From contig CM109174.1 of assembly GCA_048593225.1 (NCBI GenBank), forward strand, positions 125,683,754 through 125,747,753: DNA of 64,000 bases. The letters are read 5' to 3'. The position numbers were made by a program, and so were the translations under genes. Positions 4,251 through 11,177 of this stretch are shown here, in pieces. The DNA is from Sarcophilus harrisii (Eukaryota). The first letter of the stretch is position 1; each line of letters opens with the position of its first letter. The notes beneath the pieces are model-generated. The model made no database searches. It saw only the letters and a list, made by a program, of their open reading frames with translations, and was not told the DNA's origin.

Positions 4251-7200
4251 TTTTTAATGATTATGCTGAGCTTTAGTGAATGCTATTATAAAAATAGAAT
4301 TTGCCTTTTTTCATTAAGTTTTGTGTTGGGTTTTTTTTTTTTTTTTTTTAATGGTGATGCTGAGCTTTAGTGAATGCTACTATAAAAATAGAATTTGCCT
4401 TTTTTTTTTTTTCCAGCAAGGTGGTAGTGGAAGTTCAATAATAAAGTCATGTCCTAGACAACCTACCTTGTAGATCATATATACCTGAAGAACTCCTTAA
4501 AGATGAGCTAATCTACTGTTCCCCTCTCTCCCTTGTACCAGTGGTAGTGTATCCCACTCATTACCCTTCTCAGATAAGGTCAGACTACAGCATTGCCTGA
4601 ATTGGGGGAGGGGAAAGCGGGGGTCCCCGTCTCTTTATTAGTCTCTGGCTCCTGATGGTGTCATGGCCGGGCTGTAGGGAGTGAAGAAGAATGTCTTTGG
4701 GAGAGTCTTTGGGTCTTGCGGATGATGACACTCATAGCCAGGAGTCCACCCTAGGATTTTTTCAGATGAATTGTGAAGAGTGGGATCTCAAGCCACATTC
4801 TGAGGGAAGAAAGGGAGGAGAGGAGAGATGTGAATTCCTCTTCCCTTTCCTAAATGATTCTTTCTTGGGTCAGGAGTCAAAGGAGAACATCTGCTTCTAA
4901 AGCCTTTGAAGGAAGTATTCTGTCCCTCCTAATATTTTTGTGATCTGCTGTCCCTTGGTCCCCACAAACCTAGATCCTGCCCCAACCCCCAAAGCACCCC
5001 TATAGAATCTTAGTGGTAGAGGGTCTTACAGGTCATCTGGGTTAACATCCAACCATGGAGAAATCTCACCTACAACCTCTTAGAGAGATGGTCATCCAGT
5101 CTTTGCTTCAACACTTCTAGTAACCCAGAGCTTTTTGAGGCAGCTGGTGAGCAGTTCTGATGGAATATTTTTCCTAAATGGAAATCTCCTTCCCTGTCAC
5201 TTCCTTCCATTGAGTCTAGTTCTTCTCTCTGGAGTAAATACAGATTACAGCTATTGCCTCTTCCACACGATAACACTTCAAATCTATGAAGTCAGGTTTC
5301 ACATCTTTCCCAAGTCTTCTCTCTTCCAAGCTAGGTAGACATAGTTCCTTCAAAAGCTACATATAAGAATGATTTTTCAGGTTCATCCTCATGCTAATTA
5401 CCTTTCTTTGGGTGAATTCCATCTTGTCAATGTACCTTTGACTCTACCTTAAAATGTTGCAGCCACCGTTCAAAATACCTTGATACTTCCTTGCTCTTTC
5501 CTCAAAGGATAGGAAGAGAGGCCTTCTGGGATTGTAGTCGACCTCCGAGCATTCCGTCGGGGAGTCAAATACATGCTTCCACCCAGAGTGTCCTCTTGTC
5601 GTACAGTCTCTACCTAGAAAGGGATAGAGATTAATGCAAAATTCTATTCCCAGGTGCTAATCAGGAATAGAGTAAGGGAACTCTTCTCCCTCACCTGCTT
5701 ATGTTGGGATAGGTCTTTCTCTTTCAACTTCAGCAATTTAACTTTCTCATCTTTAAAATCTTCAACCTAAAGCATTACAAGGAAGAAGAAGGGCTTGGGT
5801 TGTTTCTGGAATTTGGAGTATAATCTTTCTTATTCTGAGGTAGGGGAATTCCTGTAGTTTCCTCCCTCAAGTGAGAAAGCATAAGAATCTTCTCTCTTTC
5901 ACATCCCTTTCTACAATCTCTAGTTGGAAGAAAATCTTATCACATACCATCTCTCTGGATGGCAGGAGATGAGTCTTGTTTCTGGTCCTGTTTCTGTCAG
6001 AACTACAAAGAAGAAGAAAGGATGGGATAGAAAGAAAATGAATTCCATAGTAAAAATGAATTCTATGGTGGAGTGCAGCCCAGCTACTCCCTCTTCAAAG
6101 TTCCTTCCCACCTAAAGTTCTCCATAATATCTCCCCCCAAAAGTGAATTCTCATTTCCTACTTCCCCTTCACCCCTGTAAAATATAGAAAACTACTGGAT
6201 TTGAAATATGAAGACTTGGGTTCAAGACCTGGTTCTGACACTTTCTAAACTTGTGAGCAAGTTATTAGTGTATTTTTTTTTTTATTTCTAAGTGGGGAAG
6301 ATAACACTTGTACTCACAAGTTACTTAGCTTTTTTGTTTTATTATCTGTAAAATGGGGAAAATAATATTTGCACTCCACAGCCCTATAGGTTGTAATGAA
6401 TAAAACAAATTGTAAAAGCCCCATAAAACAATATTATTGTTTCTCTTTCTTCAATGCCCCAGTGCCCTAAGGTGTGACCTTTCTCTTCAGGGATTCTCAC
6501 CGAGTATCTGTGCCCTTGGTCCGAGTGGTTGGCGGCACTGAAAACATAGGCCCTAGTTAGAAAGAGTGCCTCTCTCTGTGACCAAAAAGGGAAAAAGGGG
6601 TTGGAATAACTAGTCACAGGGATTGGGTAAGTAAGATCAAGAATACGGAAATGAAACACAGATGCTTGTAAGGTTGTATGACGTTAGGTGGGAATGGCAC
6701 CTAAGGGGGGGCCTGCCAGGGTTCAAAACGGGTTCCTAGGGAGTAGACTTTGGGGCTGGAGTTCAGGGCACTGTATTAGAGCAGGGATCACCGTGTCGGG
6801 ACATCTGAGTTCCCTGGTCCAGTTTTTTCAATTCCTTGGGCAGGTCAGAGCCTATTGGATATTGGGCTCCCATCAGGGCCTCGTTGGTAAGTTCTGTGCT
6901 GATACGGACCAAATACTCCTCAGATCTGGTTAACACCTTGCAGGAAGGATGAGAGTTGAGGGGACCAGGGTCAGATGGTTGATTTGGGGGGAGAAAAGTG
7001 CCCCTTTCCCTGCAATCCTCCCACTGCACTCACCGCTGGTGTAGGGGGATTATGTGAATTTAGAGTGCCCTTTTTCTCCTGAGGCCCTGAAGGACTGGAC
7101 GCCATCCCCTGGGAACAGGTAGAGAGAGGTGGGCTATTAAGTTGGAAAGTTACCCCACTTTTTTTTTTTTTTTCCCCTTTGGAGGGTGTGGGCCAGGCAT

Positions 7201-7862
7201 GGCCTGAGACTATCCCATGATGTTATTTTCAGTTGTGCGGAAAAACCACCTTCTGGTTTCCTTTCTCCAACAGATTAACACACAAACTTTAGGGCATCCA
7301 GCCCATCATTAGTCGTTTTTCCACTTTCCCTCACACCAGTCTGTCCCCCCTCCCTTTCCTCAATTTGGTCCCTTCAGTTGACTCCCTCCTCCTCCACCCC
7401 CTAGTCCTCAGGGTCCTTTCCCAAACCCAAGGGTTCAGTTTCCCATTTTCGAGACCTGATGTTGGATAGAAATTGCCTATGGCCCGGGAGGGGAGAGACG
7501 GGGAGGTCTTTCTAGTAGTCCCGCCGTTGCTGTTGCTATGGTTACCGGTCGCAGAGGGAAGGGAGGATGGAAGGGGGAGGGGAAGAGTGGCACGGGGAGG
7601 TTGCCCCGGGAACCACGCAGGCGGAGGGAGCTCGGCGGCGCGTTGCTAGGAGACAACTCCTTTGAATTCTAGACGTCAAATCCGAAGTCATCTTTTTTTT
7701 TTTTTCTTTCTTTCTTTTTTTCCCGGCATCCCTTTCTTCTCCGCTCAAGCATCATATGCAGTAGAACTACTCAGCTTGCAGGGCGGGGAGAATTATTTAT
7801 CCTACTAATAGGCTTGAATATTGAAAGAGTAGTATCCTCCCAGGGCCCAGGGGGCGATCTCT

Positions 7863-8088
7863 AGAGTCAGCTCCTTCTAGTCTAAAGCTGCTTCCGGACG
7901 CTCTAGCTGCCACCTTGACGTCCTGGAGTAACTGAGATCAAAAGAGGATGAGTCAGAGTTGGAGGAAAGGGATGATTTAGGACGGAACCAAATGCTTCAT
8001 GCGGTGGGTCCTTGAAGCGTGGGTTACGTGAAATAAGTCTCTCTTTTGTTCCTTTTTAAGAGAAAGACCCTCACCAAAAATTAAAGCT
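7863..8088 (+). repeat. Local direct repeat, copy A (226 bp)
   Basis: About 93% identical to 9240-9465 in the same orientation. Begins AGAGTC, ends TTAAAGCT. Confidence 0.85.
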
Positions 8089-8129
8089 AGTTATTAGTGT
8101 GCTTATCTAGCTTCTCTTCGGCACCTTTT

Positions 8130-8830
8130 CCATTCTGAGTTTACAATTCGTTCCCAGTCTCTGTGCGCGTAACCCCCTCCCCGCCCTGAACTTGGTTCAA
8201 GCCGCCGGAGAGCCGAGCAGGAAAGAAAGGGGAAAGGAAGAGGGCCGTTCTTAAAGGGATCGGGGCCGCTTTTGGCCGCCAGCTTTGCGTCAGCGCGGGC
8301 GGAAGGGCAGATTTCTGGGATTCCGGGGGCCCCCCCCGCCCGGCCGGCGCTGTGACGCCAGGAAGAAAGGTGGAGAGGAAGGACTTGGAGTCCCTCCCTG
8401 GGCCCCGAGCGAGCGGCCTAAGGGGAGCTGCCTCCCTGCAGGAGGAAGGCCGGCCGGGCGCCGGAAGCTGCACAGCTGGACCGGCTGATGCCTGGGACGG
8501 CAGGGGGGGCTTGCACATCTGGGTCCCGCCCGGGGCGGAGGCCGCGGGGTCCGCTGCGGCCCCGGAGCTGCTGATGCGCGGGGGCGGACGGGGCGGCTGC
8601 ACGGGGCCGGCGCCGGGGGGTGCCTGCGGGCAGAGGGAAGGGGCGGAGCGGCAGCCGGGGACGCGGCAGCCCGAGCCCGGGGCTTGCTTAGCTGCCTGAC
8701 GCGGCAGCGCCCGGGGACCGCTGCCCCTCCCCCGCGTTTCCAGAGGCCGTCCCTCCGCGCCCCGCCGAGATGCCGGAAGAAAACATCTTTCTGTTCGTGC
8801 CCAACCTCATCGGTGAGTCTGCGGACCCCG
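8130..8830 (+). promoter_or_regulatory. CDIPT: CpG island / CDIPT promoter and 5'UTR
   Basis: Very high GC and CpG density immediately upstream of the CDIPT ATG at 8770. No TATA box; typical housekeeping promoter. Confidence 0.6.
8770..8812 (+). CDS. CDIPT: CDIPT exon 1 coding part (MPEENIFLFVPNLI-G)
   Basis: ATG in good Kozak context (gagATGc); donor GTGAGT at 8813. Near-identical to the human CDP-diacylglycerol--inositol 3-phosphatidyltransferase N-terminus (from memory). Confidence 0.9.
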
Positions 8831-8988
8831 AGCGCGGGCCGCAGCACCGCGCGTGACCTTGGGCGGGCGGCTCCCCGTCCCCGATGCTCCTCTCCCCGGC
8901 CCGGGTCTCGGTGGGGGTCGGTGGGGCCCCTCGGGCCGGCCCCGTTTGTTCACACCCGTCCTAGTGCTCTCTCTGCCCTCGTCCTCAG

Positions 8989-9123
8989 GCTATGCTCGCA
9001 TCGTCTTCGCCCTCATTTCCTTCTACTTCATGCCCAGCTGCCCGTTCACTGCCTCCTCCTTCTACTTGCTCAGCGGGCTCTTGGACGCCTTCGACGGGCA
9101 CGCAGCCCGGGCCCTGAATCAAG
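8989..9123 (+). CDS. CDIPT: CDIPT exon 2
   Basis: Acceptor gtcctcAG at 8987-8988. It encodes YARIVFALISFYFMPSCPFTASSFYLLSGLLDAFDGHAARALNQ (CDP-alcohol phosphotransferase motif D-G-x2-A-R); donor GTGACC at 9124. Anchored to ORF 8853..9284. Confidence 0.9.
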
Positions 9124-9239
9124 GTGACCGAACGCCCAGCGCGCCGCTCCCCTCCCCCCCCCCCCCTTCCCCCTCCCCGAGCACCCTCCCCGGACTCGGG
9201 CCGGGCACCGAAGCAGGGGGGGAGGGGCTAATCATTAGC

Positions 9240-9465
9240 CAGAGTCGGCTCCCTCCGGTCCAAAGCTGCTTCCGGACGCTCTAGCTGCCACCTGGACGTC
9301 CTGCAGTAACTGAGATCAAGAGAGGATGAGTCAGAGTTGGAGGAAAGGGATGACTTAGGACGGAACCAAATGCTTCATCCGGTGGGTCCCTGAAGCGTGG
9401 GTTACCTGAAATAAGTCTCTCTTTTGTTCCTTTTTAAGAGAAAAATCCTCACCAAAAATTAAAGC
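9240..9465 (+). repeat. Local direct repeat, copy B (226 bp) in CDIPT intron 2
   Basis: About 93% identical to 7863-8088. The spacing between copies is 1377 bp. Confidence 0.85.
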
Positions 9466-9936
9466 TCCCTGGTGGTTAGATCGCAAAACCCCGAATTAAG
9501 GGAACCAGAGAGGTTTGGAGCACTTTCCCCTGGGGAATCTTCTCTGGGTGTGTTGAGATTGAAAAAAGGAGTTTGGGGTCACAGACTGGTGTCACGGGGT
9601 GTCTCGGAAGAATTTGCAGTCAAGGGGCAAAGTTTAGTGAATTGTAATGTCATTACAAACCCGGGCTTGGAATTTCCCAAAGAAATTTGCTACCCACCCC
9701 TTACACCTTCTAATCTTGGCCCCTTATCTGCTCTTAGATCCCTGTCTCAGTTGATTGGCAGTTTCTGACTCCTAGTCCTCTCTGGGCCCAGGAGAGAATG
9801 AACACCCTTAGTTTTTCAGTTCCTGCCCATCTGCGGGTTGGGAGCAGCGTTGCTCATGCTGACCCTGGCCGGGGTCCATTCACTCTCACTGTTTTCATCC
9901 CAGACTTCTGTCTCCCTCATTTCTACCTCAATTTAG

Positions 9937-10090
9937 GAACACGCTTTGGGGCAATGCTGGACATGCTGACTGATCGATGTTCCACCATGTGTTTGCTGGT
10001 AAACCTAGCTCTGCTCTACCCGCGGGCCACCCTGCTCTTCCAGCTCAGCATGAGTCTGGATGTTGCCAGCCATTGGCTGCACCTACACAG
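9937..10090 (+). CDS. CDIPT: CDIPT exon 3
   Basis: Acceptor atttAG at 9935-9936. It encodes TRFGAMLDMLTDRCSTMCLLVNLALLYPRATLLFQLSMSLDVASHWLHLH; donor GTTACA at 10091. Anchored to ORF 9798..10127. Confidence 0.9.
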
Positions 10091-10375
10091 GTTACAACCA
10101 CCACCCCACCGGGCTGAGAAAGTATAGCCTTGGGTTTGGCCCGTCACTCACCGAGTTACTTCAGGAGGGGTCCTAATGATCACCTTTCAGTGAGGGTAGA
10201 AAGAGGAAGTCCTAGAGATACTTCACTGGGGAATGGGCCTTTCTTCTTAGAGGCAAGGGAGAATCCATGGGTTAGTGGGTGATGGAACAAGAGAAATATG
10301 GGTGGGGGAAGTGGGGCAAGGTGGGAGTTTGAGTGGGAGAGGGAATACTTTATATTCTCGTATCTTTCCTTCCAG

Positions 10376-10457
10376 CTCCGTGGTCCGTGGCAGTGAGAGC
10401 CACAAAACTATTGACCTAACAGGGAATCCCATCCTTCGGCTCTACTATACTTCCCGG
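10376..10457 (+). CDS. CDIPT: CDIPT exon 4
   Basis: Acceptor ccttccAG at 10374-10375. It encodes SVVRGSESHKTIDLTGNPILRLYYTSR; donor GTGAGT at 10458. Anchored to ORF 10275..10547. Confidence 0.9.
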
Positions 10458-10586
10458 GTGAGTCCCAATACAGATCTTACCCCTAGACGGCACTTTGAGT
10501 GTCCAGATACCTTGCCTTGCTGCCAGGTATCCACTTCCATTCTCTGAAGTCTTAACTGGTTTTGGAATGAATGTGAGGGAGCATAT

Positions 10587-10588
10587 GA

Positions 10589-10633
<45 letters not shown>

Positions 10634-10668
10634 TGTGTGTTTGTGTGTGAGAGAGAGAGAGAGAGAGA
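10587..10668. repeat. Compound (GT)n(GA)n microsatellite in CDIPT intron 4
   Basis: About 27 GT repeats (with two GTTT interruptions) followed by about 11 GA repeats. Ends about 65 bp upstream of the exon-5 acceptor. Confidence 0.85.
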
Positions 10669-10734
10669 AAGAGACGCTGAAATTGTGAGCCCACTATTCA
10701 AATTAAAAACACATGTTTTACCTTCTTCTTGCAG

Positions 10735-10816
10735 CCAGTGCTATTCATCATGTGTGCTGGGAATGAATTTTTCTACTGTCTGCTTTACTTGCTCTATTTC
10801 TCCGAGGGGCCATTAG
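10735..10816 (+). CDS. CDIPT: CDIPT exon 5
   Basis: Acceptor tcttgcAG at 10733-10734. It encodes PVLFIMCAGNEFFYCLLYLLYFSEGPL; donor GTATGA at 10817. Anchored to ORF 10729..10944. Confidence 0.9.
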
Positions 10817-11031: not shown

Positions 11032-11177
11032 TGGGTTCAGTGGGTCTGTTCCGACTGGGACTCTGGATCTCCGCTCCTATTGCTTTTCTCAAGTCCCTCA
11101 TCAGTGTCATCCATTTGGTCACTGCCGCACGCAACATGGCTGCCCTGGATGCTGCTGACCGTGCCAAGAAGGAATAA
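11032..11177 (+). CDS. CDIPT: CDIPT exon 6, terminal (includes TAA stop)
   Basis: Acceptor ttttgcAG at 11030-11031. It encodes VGSVGLFRLGLWISAPIAFLKSLISVIHLVTAARNMAALDAADRAKKE*. The six exons sum to 639 nt (213 codons), the same length as human CDIPT. Confidence 0.9.

What the first reader, a model, noticed from the sequence alone, without database searches (positions are those of the whole stretch)
7863..9465. 226-bp direct repeat pair bracketing the CDIPT CpG-island promoter, exon 1 and exon 2
Two copies lie in the same orientation 1377 bp apart: 7863-8088 upstream of the promoter and 9240-9465 in intron 2. They are about 93% identical, with about 15 mismatches over 226 bp. Between them lie only the CDIPT core promoter, the ATG exon and exon 2. 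The element does not look like the L1 or SINE families elsewhere in the window and has no poly(A) tail or TG..CA ends. It could be a low-copy segmental repeat able to mediate recombinational loss or duplication of the CDIPT 5' end, a pair of duplicated regulatory modules kept similar by gene conversion, or the terminal repeats of an old composite insertion.
Basis: seen in the sequence. Interest (0 to 1): 0.5.

Follow-up and report, generated by a model that had tools for sequence, protein, structure and literature searches.

The report
Devil-specific copy of CDIPT upstream DNA
In the Tasmanian devil lineage, a 226-bp piece of ordinary DNA upstream of the CDIPT gene was copied 1.4 kb downstream into intron 2, most likely while a DNA break was being repaired; it is a real but ordinary structural mutation, not a mobile element.

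Summary
The repeat is real: 7863-8088 and 9241-9466, same strand, 226 bp ungapped, 14 mismatches (93.8%). The window is Tasmanian devil; CDIPT exon 1 (8770-8812) and exon 2 (8989-9123) lie between the copies.

Five other marsupials each have one copy, always at the upstream position (71-90% identity). It sits inside a continuously conserved ~1.8-kb intergenic block and is no more conserved than its flanks. Bilby gave no hit. No other species has copy 2.

The outgroup intron reads ...ATTAGC-TGTTGGGAAGAGCT-CCCTGG...; in the devil about 13 bp are replaced by the 226-bp copy. Junction microhomology is 2-4 bp. There is no target-site duplication, poly(A) or terminal repeat.

Best explanation: a single microhomology-mediated templated insertion, roughly 3-13 Myr old. 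Ten devil-derived substitutions are shared by both copies. Afterwards copy 2 gained 11 changes and copy 1 gained 2.

The transposon/LTR reading is rejected and the gene-conversion reading is unsupported. The recombination-substrate reading is possible but weak, because the longest perfect match is 37 bp.

A sharply local GC-biased substitution burst on the devil lineage (39:2 versus 62:84 elsewhere) covers source and target, suggesting a past recombination hotspot.

Not done: whole-genome copy count and confirmation in a second assembly. Interest is low.

The parts
7863..8088 (+). Copy 1, the source. It is an ancestral segment of the conserved intergenic region between CDIPT and a divergent minus-strand gene, and it ends about 150 bp upstream of the most 5' transcribed CDIPT base seen.
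   Evidence: There is a single syntenic orthologue in Antechinus (89.9%), Sminthopsis (86.4%), Vombatus (75%), Dromiciops (72%) and Monodelphis (71%). Mean identity to Vombatus/Dromiciops/Monodelphis is 0.757 against 0.776 for the flanks. RNA contig L002 starts at 8240.
9241..9466 (+). Copy 2, a devil-lineage-specific templated insertion in CDIPT intron 2. It starts 118 bp after exon 2, at the 3' edge of the CpG island.
   Evidence: It is absent from intron 2 of Antechinus, Sminthopsis, Vombatus, Dromiciops, Monodelphis and Macrotis. It carries 10 devil-derived substitutions shared with copy 1 plus 11 of its own.
9234..9246 (+). Left junction, TTAGCC|AGAGTC. Outgroup sequence is ATTAGC-TGTTGGGAAGAGCT. 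The microhomology is either CT (2 bp, with a later T>C) or AGAG (4 bp), depending on where the break is placed.
   Evidence: Alignments of devil, Antechinus, Sminthopsis and Vombatus intron 2; source flank ...GATCTCT|AGAGTC.
9463..9472 (+). Right junction, AAAGCT|CCCTGG. AGCT is present at the end of the source and also in the outgroup target (AGAGCT|CCCTGG), giving 2-4 bp of microhomology. About 13 bp of target between two AGCT motifs are missing.
   Evidence: The orthologous intron resumes at 9463 in blastn against three species. Alignment with copy 2 removed is. Caveat: the G at 8086 is devil-derived.
8089..9240 (+). Unique spacer bracketed by the repeats: CpG-island promoter, 5'UTR, exon 1 (8770-8812), intron 1, exon 2 (8989-9123) and the first 117 bp of intron 2.
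9149..9191 (-). Run of C-tracts (a G-quadruplex-type motif on the minus strand) 50 bp 5' of the insertion point. It is a possible fork-stalling or break-prone site; this is inference only.
   Evidence: Regex scan. The adjacent stretch is also indel-prone: the devil lacks about 94 bp that Antechinus and Vombatus have.
7863..9936 (.). Zone of devil-lineage GC-biased substitutions. It contains both the source and the target of the duplication.
   Evidence: W>S:S>W is 39:2 here against 62:84 in the rest of the 22-kb locus (Fisher p=1.9e-10). The Antechinus lineage in the same zone is 5:11.

Best explanation
Copy 1 is ordinary ancestral sequence in the conserved CDIPT upstream region. Copy 2 arose on the Tasmanian-devil lineage after its split from Antechinus, roughly 3-13 Myr ago.

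It arose as a single templated insertion. A break or stalled fork in intron 2, between ...ATTAGCT and AGCTCCCTGG..., lost about 9-13 bp. One 3' end annealed by 2-4 bp of microhomology to the duplex 1.4 kb upstream, on the same molecule, the sister chromatid or the homologue. It copied 226 bp (7863-8088), then re-annealed by AGCT to the other side of the break.

The result is a dispersed direct duplication with no transposon hallmarks. Since then copy 2 has drifted, mostly by A/T-to-G/C changes typical of this locus in the devil, while copy 1 changed little.

Shown: the direction of copying, the lineage specificity, the junction sequences, the absence of TE hallmarks and the asymmetric divergence.

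Inferred: the one-step microhomology-mediated repair or template-switch mechanism, the meiotic-hotspot context, and the lack of function of copy 2.

The confidence of 0.7 is for the whole statement. That copy 2 is a devil-lineage duplicate of the upstream segment I put at about 0.9; the one-step mechanism at about 0.65.
For: There is one syntenic orthologue of the element in each of five other marsupials, always upstream; none has the intronic copy.

The orthologous intron resumes exactly at 9463-9467 in three species. The outgroup target ATTAGC-TGTTGGGAAGAGCT-CCCTGG is replaced by C plus 226 bp. With copy 2 removed, the devil equals Antechinus minus 13 bp between two AGCT motifs.

There is no target-site duplication, poly(A), terminal inverted repeat or TG..CA ends, no Rfam match, and no other copy in 64 kb plus 7 loci.

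Ten devil-derived substitutions are shared by both copies, 11 are private to copy 2 and 2 to copy 1. Combined with a 16.7-24.5 Ma Dasyurini-Phascogalini split (PMC5715987), this gives about 3-13 Ma.

Published meiotic-break structural variants are mostly under 2 kb, show microhomology and template switching, and are copied with about 1.2% error (PMC7615360). A devil-specific GC-biased burst covers source and target. Devil PRDM9 is reported as partial (PMC5519329).
Against: The mechanism is inferred from one fixed product. Microhomology of 2-4 bp is short, and the right-hand AGCT depends on a G (8086) that may itself be devil-derived.

The devil's pre-insertion sequence is inferred from outgroups.

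The excess of changes in copy 2 (11 versus 2), with five of them in the first 21 bp, is not fully explained.

The strict MMBIR templated-insertion signature used in PMC8421209 is short, inverted and within 100 bp, which this event is not.

I could not search the whole devil genome and could not retrieve a second assembly. Copy number genome-wide and independence from one assembly are therefore unverified.
Confidence: 0.7

Rival explanations
1. Two-step origin. First a tandem duplication of the 1378-bp unit 7863-9240 (element, promoter, exons 1-2). Then a deletion of about 1.17 kb between two AGCT motifs removed the second promoter and exons, leaving only the second 226 bp.
For: The left junction (end of 9240 joined to 7863) is exactly what a tandem-duplication junction would look like. 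The right junction lies at an AGCT shared by the end of the element and the target. This model needs no separate small deletion.
Against: It needs two events whose breakpoints happen to leave a clean 226-bp insert. The intermediate would carry a second promoter and ATG exon inside an essential gene. There is no remnant of a second spacer.
Confidence: 0.12
2. RNA-templated patch, of the class 2 templated-sequence-insertion type. A transcript running through 7863-8088 was reverse-transcribed, or used directly, to patch a double-strand break in intron 2.
For: Class 2 events lack target-site duplications and poly(A) and show microdeletion and microhomology (PMC5110952), as seen here. The source lies in a bidirectional promoter region where upstream transcription is plausible.
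Against: There is no evidence that 7863-8088 is transcribed: the RNA contig L002 starts at 8240. The segment boundaries are not splice sites. Described class 2 donors are distant loci, whereas this donor is 1.4 kb away in cis, which favours direct DNA copying.
Confidence: 0.05
3. Copy 2 is a retained, functional duplicate of an upstream regulatory module (an intronic enhancer or alternative promoter). It may be kept similar to copy 1 by ectopic, GC-biased gene conversion.
For: Both copies keep an ETS-type CCGGAAG site and an AP-1 TGAGTCA site. The devil has an annotated isoform starting at Met66 in exon 3, whose 5' exon is unknown. All 10 shared derived sites are W>S, as biased conversion would also produce.
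Against: Copy 2 is absent from the closest sequenced relatives. It evolves about 5 times faster than copy 1. It has lost the half-CRE and the ACGTG-containing site. Shared and private sites are interleaved, not in tracts. Copy 1 is itself no more conserved than its flanks.
Confidence: 0.07
4. The pair are two insertions of a transposable element, or the LTRs of a composite element.
For: The only support is the superficial picture of two same-orientation repeats bracketing a segment.
Against: Copy 1 and the whole spacer are orthologous and syntenic across about 70-80 Myr of marsupial evolution. There is no target-site duplication, terminal inverted repeat, TG..CA ends or poly(A). No other copy occurs in about 210 kb of marsupial DNA, and the metagenome scan returned only chance matches to the 20-mer.
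Confidence: 0.01
5. Copy 2 is an assembly artefact of the reference genome.
For: Only one assembly could be examined. The region is GC-rich and carries homopolymer C and G runs.
Against: Artefactual duplications are near-identical, whereas this copy differs at 14 sites. The direction of those changes (9 of 11 W>S) matches the devil-lineage pattern of the surrounding unique intron (15:4) and promoter (24:2), so the copy has evolved in place. The junctions are clean, with a matching 13-bp target loss.
Confidence: 0.03

Closest known systems
Templated insertions / insertional (dispersed) duplications formed by microhomology-mediated template switching or break repair (FoSTeS/MMBIR, polymerase-theta end joining, SDSA with template switch)
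   Same: The inserted DNA is a copy of a nearby template in cis. There are 2-4 bp of microhomology at both junctions and a small deletion at the target, with no target-site duplication. The size and distance (under 2 kb) match the structural variants seen at human meiotic hotspots (PMC7615360).
   Different: The strict MMB-TI signature of PMC8421209 is at least 10 bp up to read length, inverted, and within 100 bp of its template. This event is 226 bp, direct and 1.4 kb away. It is an old, apparently fixed evolutionary event, so the pathway cannot be determined.
Class 2 templated sequence insertion polymorphisms (Onozawa and Aplan; PMC5110952)
   Same: No target-site duplication, no poly(A), microdeletion and microhomology at the junctions; interpreted as a patch in a double-strand break.
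   Different: Class 2 donors are distant loci and are thought to be RNA-derived. Here the donor is 1.4 kb upstream on the same chromosome and is not known to be transcribed.
Low-copy repeats and Alu pairs as substrates of non-allelic homologous recombination
   Same: Two same-orientation repeats of about Alu size flank an essential gene's promoter and first two exons, so unequal exchange or single-strand annealing would delete or duplicate them.
   Different: The pair is 226 bp at 94% identity with a longest perfect run of 37 bp. This falls below the usual segmental-duplication definition (at least 1 kb and 90% identity; from my own knowledge) and well below the minimal processing segments in PMC2583991. 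No rearranged allele is known.
GC-biased gene conversion tracts at recombination hotspots (as in GC-biased fast-evolving regions)
   Same: There is a sharply local, lineage-specific excess of W>S substitutions (39:2) and a GC rise in the promoter block (0.707 against 0.62-0.64 in five of the six other species).
   Different: This concerns the context rather than the repeat itself. No recombination map was available to confirm a hotspot.

Membership tests
Transposable element / LTR pair | Both copies absent from the orthologous site in outgroup species (insertion polymorphism across lineages) | tested here: not met
   Copy 1 is present at the syntenic site in 5 other marsupials. Only copy 2 is lineage-specific.
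Transposable element / LTR pair | Target-site duplication and terminal structures (TG..CA, terminal inverted repeats, poly(A) tail) | tested here: not met
   The flanks are GATCTCT|...|AGTTATT and ATTAGCC|...|CCCTGGT. The ends are AGAG...AGCT, and there is no poly(A).
Transposable element / LTR pair | Many dispersed copies in the genome | tested here: inconclusive
   No extra copy was found in the 64-kb window or in about 150 kb of orthologous loci. The metagenome scan returned only chance matches. A whole-genome search is not possible with these tools.
Microhomology-mediated templated insertion (dispersed duplication) | Insert is a copy of a template elsewhere, with the empty site preserved in relatives | tested here: met
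   The template is 7863-8088. The empty site is seen in Antechinus, Sminthopsis and Vombatus intron 2.
Microhomology-mediated templated insertion (dispersed duplication) | Microhomology at both junctions, no target-site duplication, often a small target deletion | tested here: met
   The left junction has CT or AGAG (2-4 bp) and the right has AGCT (2-4 bp). About 13 bp of target are lost. The ancestral devil target is inferred from outgroups.
Microhomology-mediated templated insertion (dispersed duplication) | Extra point mutations near the breakpoints (error-prone synthesis) | tested here: inconclusive
   Five of the 14 differences lie in the 21 bp next to the left junction (a priori P=0.007; scan P=0.18). 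All five are W>S, like the regional background.
MMB-TI signature as defined in MMBSearch (PMC8421209) | Short insert that is an inverted copy of a template within 100 bp | tested here: not met
   The copy is direct, 226 bp long, and its template is 1378 bp away.
Tandem / segmental duplication | Adjacent head-to-tail copies, or at least 1 kb at 90% identity or more | tested here: not met
   The copies are separated by 1152 bp of unique sequence and are only 226 bp long.
Paralogous modules homogenised by gene conversion | Both copies old (present in several lineages) yet more alike within a species than between species, with conversion tracts | tested here: not met
   Copy 2 is found in the devil only. 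Shared and private sites are interleaved, and the longest identical run is 37 bp.
NAHR substrate | Uninterrupted identity at or above the minimal efficient processing segment | tested here: not met
   The longest identical run is 37 bp, against 134-232 bp (mitotic) and 300-500 bp (meiotic) in PMC2583991. Exceptions below 50 bp exist for closely spaced repeats.

The most novel reading that the evidence does not exclude
The CDIPT CpG island was a promoter-centred meiotic recombination hotspot on the devil lineage, in a species whose PRDM9 appears partial. On this reading, the 226-bp templated insertion and the roughly 2-3-kb burst of A/T-to-G/C substitutions are two fossil footprints of the same break activity. 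A further possibility is that the new intronic copy, which keeps ETS and AP-1 type sites, supplies the start of the devil's annotated N-terminally truncated CDIPT isoform (Met66).
Probability: 0.25. Interest if true: 0.45.

Novelty: new member of a known kind. Interest (0 to 1): 0.22.

Why it matters
The result turns an ambiguous repeat pair into a dated, polarised mutation with both junctions resolved. It is a clean natural example of a small dispersed duplication made by break repair or template switching, next to a CpG island that also shows a strong lineage-specific GC-biased substitution burst.

For annotation, the element should not be entered as a repeat family or an LTR.

For devil genetics, it creates direct repeats around the promoter and first two coding exons of an essential phosphatidylinositol-synthase gene. 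That is a weak but checkable fragile architecture in population and tumour genomes.

None of this would surprise a specialist. The side observation of a hotspot-like GC-biased tract is the more interesting lead.

Tried and rejected
1. Rfam scan of 7000-10500 at a permissive threshold: only noise hits.

2. Search for a third copy in the window and in all fetched loci: none found.

3. Metagenome scan for the most conserved 20-mer, as a proxy for a high-copy host repeat: six hits that match the 20-mer only, so chance matches.

The cluster listing supplied usable protein ids instead.

5. Attempts to reach a second assembly carrying an identical CDIPT protein (746-Mb contig, KAM9098667.1): the tool collapses it as a 'similar place' whatever the flank.

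6. Protein searches to obtain neighbour-gene ids from that assembly failed. The minus-strand ORF returned only 88-92 aa uncharacterised proteins. The MVP exon search used too strict a cut-off and returned only fragments; that was my error and it exhausted the cap.

7. Exact look-ups of junction-spanning and adjacent ORFs, to find independent run assemblies: nothing on record.

8. CTCF: no full core motif in the element. There are only loose half-matches, one of them in the conserved block just outside the left boundary.

9. Considered and rejected: an exon of either neighbouring gene (the boundaries are not splice sites and the RNA contig starts at 8240); a tRNA-derived SINE (no Rfam or structural support); tandem duplication (the spacer is unique).
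Full report
**Observation**

The repeat is in the sequence as described. The repeat finder and blastn give one direct pair, 7863-8088 and 9241-9466. Both are on the + strand, 226 bp without gaps, with 14 mismatches (93.8%) and a spacing of 1378 bp.

Similarity ends abruptly on both sides. There is no third copy in the 64-kb window and no Rfam family matches the region.

CDIPT lies on the + strand. Its exons are 8770-8812 (ATG), 8989-9123, 9937-10090, 10376-10457, 10735-~10817 and ~11032-11177. The spliced 213-aa protein is identical to Sarcophilus harrisii XP_031819448.1. The window is colinear with chromosome record LR735554.1 of assembly GCA_902635505.1.

The 1152 bp between the copies hold the following:
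- the CpG island, about 8100-9240;
- the 5'UTR, since a devil RNA contig matches 8240-8813 at 100%;
- exon 1, intron 1, exon 2 and the first 117 bp of intron 2.

**Which copy is old**

I fetched the orthologous loci, all with the gene order SEZ6L2, a small minus-strand gene, CDIPT, then MVP. They came from:
- Antechinus flavipes
- Sminthopsis crassicaudata
- Macrotis lagotis
- Vombatus ursinus
- Monodelphis domestica
- Dromiciops gliroides

The 226-bp element hits each of Antechinus, Sminthopsis, Vombatus, Dromiciops and Monodelphis exactly once. The hit is always 680-930 bp upstream of the CDIPT ATG, the position of copy 1. Identities are 89.9, 86.4, 75, 72 and 71%. Macrotis gave no hit, and none of the six species has anything like it in intron 2.

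The whole stretch 7000-8840 aligns to these species at 75-87%. Within it, the copy-1 segment is no better conserved than its flanks: 0.757 against 0.776 identity to the three distant species.

So copy 1 is an unremarkable piece of a conserved bidirectional-promoter region, and copy 2 is a devil-lineage novelty. This rules out a transposon family and the 'LTRs of a composite insertion' idea.

**The junctions**

Antechinus intron 2 reads ...GCTAATTATTAGC TGTTGGGAAGAGCT CCCTGGTTGTTAG.... Vombatus and Sminthopsis are similar.

The devil reads ...GCTAATCATTAGC C [AGAGTC...AAAGCT] CCCTGGTGGTTAG.... In blastn the orthologous intron resumes at 9463 in three species.

With copy 2 removed, the devil equals Antechinus minus 13 bp lying between two AGCT motifs.

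The source is flanked by ...GATCTCT|AGAGTC and AAAGCT|AGTTATT. The left junction can therefore be read with CT or AGAG microhomology, and the right junction with AGCT. A caveat applies on the right: the G at 8086 is devil-derived, so that microhomology may have been only CT at the time.

There is no target-site duplication, poly(A), terminal inverted repeat or TG..CA ends, and the segment boundaries are not splice sites. A C-tract G-quadruplex-type motif lies 50 bp 5' of the insertion point. The devil also lacks about 94 bp of adjacent intron that Antechinus and Vombatus have, so the spot is indel-prone.

**Timing and divergence**

I polarised changes with Antechinus, Sminthopsis and Vombatus.
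- Ten devil-derived substitutions are shared by both copies.
- Eleven are private to copy 2.
- Two are private to copy 1.
- One is ambiguous.

The duplication therefore happened after most of the devil branch's divergence from Antechinus. The fraction of the branch is 2/12 by the copy-1 clock and 11/21 by the copy-2 clock. The Dasyurini-Phascogalini split is dated at 16.7-24.5 Ma (PMC5715987), which gives roughly 3-13 Ma. Whether quolls share the insert is open.

The copies evolve asymmetrically (Tajima chi-square 6.23, p=0.013; exact p=0.022). Shared and private sites are interleaved, and the longest identical run is 37 bp. That argues against recent gene-conversion tracts.

Five of the 14 differences lie in the 21 bp beside the left junction (a priori P=0.007; scan statistic P=0.18). 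This may reflect error-prone synthesis, but it is not established.

**Mechanism**

The simplest reading is a single microhomology-mediated templated insertion. A break or stalled fork in intron 2 lost a few bases. A 3' end primed on the duplex 1.4 kb upstream, copied 226 bp, and re-annealed to the other side of the break.

This matches what is reported for structural variants at human meiotic hotspots. They are mostly under 2 kb, almost all show microhomology, there is evidence of template switching, and polymerase error is about 1.2% (PMC7615360).

It does not match the narrow MMBIR templated-insertion signature, which is short, inverted and within 100 bp (PMC8421209). It resembles class 2 templated sequence insertions in junction features, but not in donor distance or presumed RNA origin (PMC5110952).

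A two-step alternative fits the junctions equally well: tandem duplication of 7863-9240, then a 1.17-kb deletion between AGCT motifs. It needs two events and a probably harmful intermediate.

An assembly artefact is unlikely. Copy 2's private changes have the same A/T-to-G/C direction as the devil-lineage changes in the surrounding unique sequence, so the copy has evolved in place. However, I could not check a second assembly or raw reads.

**Context: a local GC-biased burst**

Devil-lineage substitutions are strongly A/T-to-G/C across 7863-9936: 39:2 with copy 2 excluded. The rest of the 22-kb locus is 62:84 (Fisher p=1.9e-10). The Antechinus lineage in the same zone is 5:11.

In 1-kb bins the bias is 30:1, 10:0 and 17:3 from 7770 to 10769, and is absent elsewhere. 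The 680 bp upstream of the ATG are 70.7% GC in the devil against 62-64% in five of the six other species; Macrotis is higher, at 77.2%.

This is the signature expected of GC-biased gene conversion at a recombination hotspot. The devil's PRDM9 orthologue is reported to lack KRAB and not to evolve rapidly, although the domain loss was not confirmed (PMC5519329). Both the source and the target of the duplication lie in this zone, so a common cause in break activity is plausible. That link is inference.

**Function and risk**

Simple consensus scans show the following:
- no full CTCF core in the element;
- an ETS-type site conserved in five of the six species scanned (not matched in Monodelphis) and present in both devil copies;
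- an AP-1 site in dasyurids only, present in both devil copies;
- a half-CRE that copy 2 has lost.

The consensus strings were recalled from memory, so these are leads only.

The devil's annotated isoform X2 starts at Met66 in exon 3. I could not see its 5' exon, so any link to copy 2 is speculation.

As a recombination substrate the pair is weak. Its longest perfect match is 37 bp, against minimal processing segments of 134-232 bp (mitotic) and 300-500 bp (meiotic), although close repeats have recombined on under 50 bp (PMC2583991).

**Verdict**

This is a new instance of a known kind of mutation, and its interest is low. The main unverified points are genome-wide copy number, confirmation in independent devil data, and presence or absence in quolls.

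Noticed in passing
window 7770-10770 (L001 9001-12000): There is a sharply local devil-lineage excess of A/T-to-G/C substitutions: 30:1, 10:0 and 17:3 per 1-kb bin, and 39:2 in 7863-9936 against 62:84 elsewhere (p=1.9e-10). Promoter GC has risen to 0.707 against 0.62-0.64 in five of the six other marsupials. It looks like a gBGC tract at a past recombination hotspot on the CDIPT CpG island.
   Followed up: yes
L001 1001-2000 (window about -230 to 770; 3' part of SEZ6L2): The Antechinus lineage has its own cluster of A/T-to-G/C changes, 24:0 in one 1-kb bin. Such lineage-specific GC-biased tracts may be common in this gene-dense region.
   Followed up: no
L005 (Macrotis lagotis) 9407-9649, against window 7875-8158: Bilby has no alignable counterpart of the copy-1 segment. 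About 242 bp sit in its place and do not match. Bilby's promoter block is even more GC-rich, at 0.772. The segment may be dispensable, or may have been overwritten there.
   Followed up: partly
window 7400-7700: This is the most conserved block of the intergenic region, with 0.83-0.93 identity to wombat, monito and opossum. That is higher than the CDIPT core promoter. It may be the start of the divergent minus-strand gene or a shared regulatory core.
   Followed up: no
window 4585-7105, minus strand (L001 5816-8336): A gene model with no Pfam domain is divergent from CDIPT. Its length varies among marsupials (196-243 aa). UniProt holds only 88-92 aa 'uncharacterized' versions from devil, opossum and wombat. 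It may correspond to the CDIPT opposite-strand transcript known in human; that link is from memory and was not tested.
   Followed up: partly
window 9937 onward (exon 3); protein P0127: The devil RefSeq isoform X2 (148 aa) starts at Met66 and so lacks the first part of the CDP-alcohol phosphotransferase motif. Several other marsupials have a 168-aa form that skips exon 2. The 5' exon of the devil transcript could not be seen.
   Followed up: partly
window 9186-9200, against L003 10499-10640: The devil lacks about 94 bp of intron 2 that Antechinus and Vombatus have, about 45 bp 5' of the insertion point, and Sminthopsis lacks a similar stretch. The region next to the C-tract motif at 9149-9191 is indel-prone.
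   Followed up: partly
window 7848-7862: A CAGGGGGCGATCTCT block immediately 5' of copy 1 is nearly invariant in all six species and resembles the 3' half of a CTCF motif. It was not included in the duplication.
   Followed up: partly
window 10572-10653: There is a (TG)n microsatellite in CDIPT intron 4.
   Followed up: no
L002 1-532 (window 8240-8769): The devil CDIPT mRNA contig carries a 5'UTR of at least 530 nt, GC-rich, with a long upstream ORF called on it.
   Followed up: no
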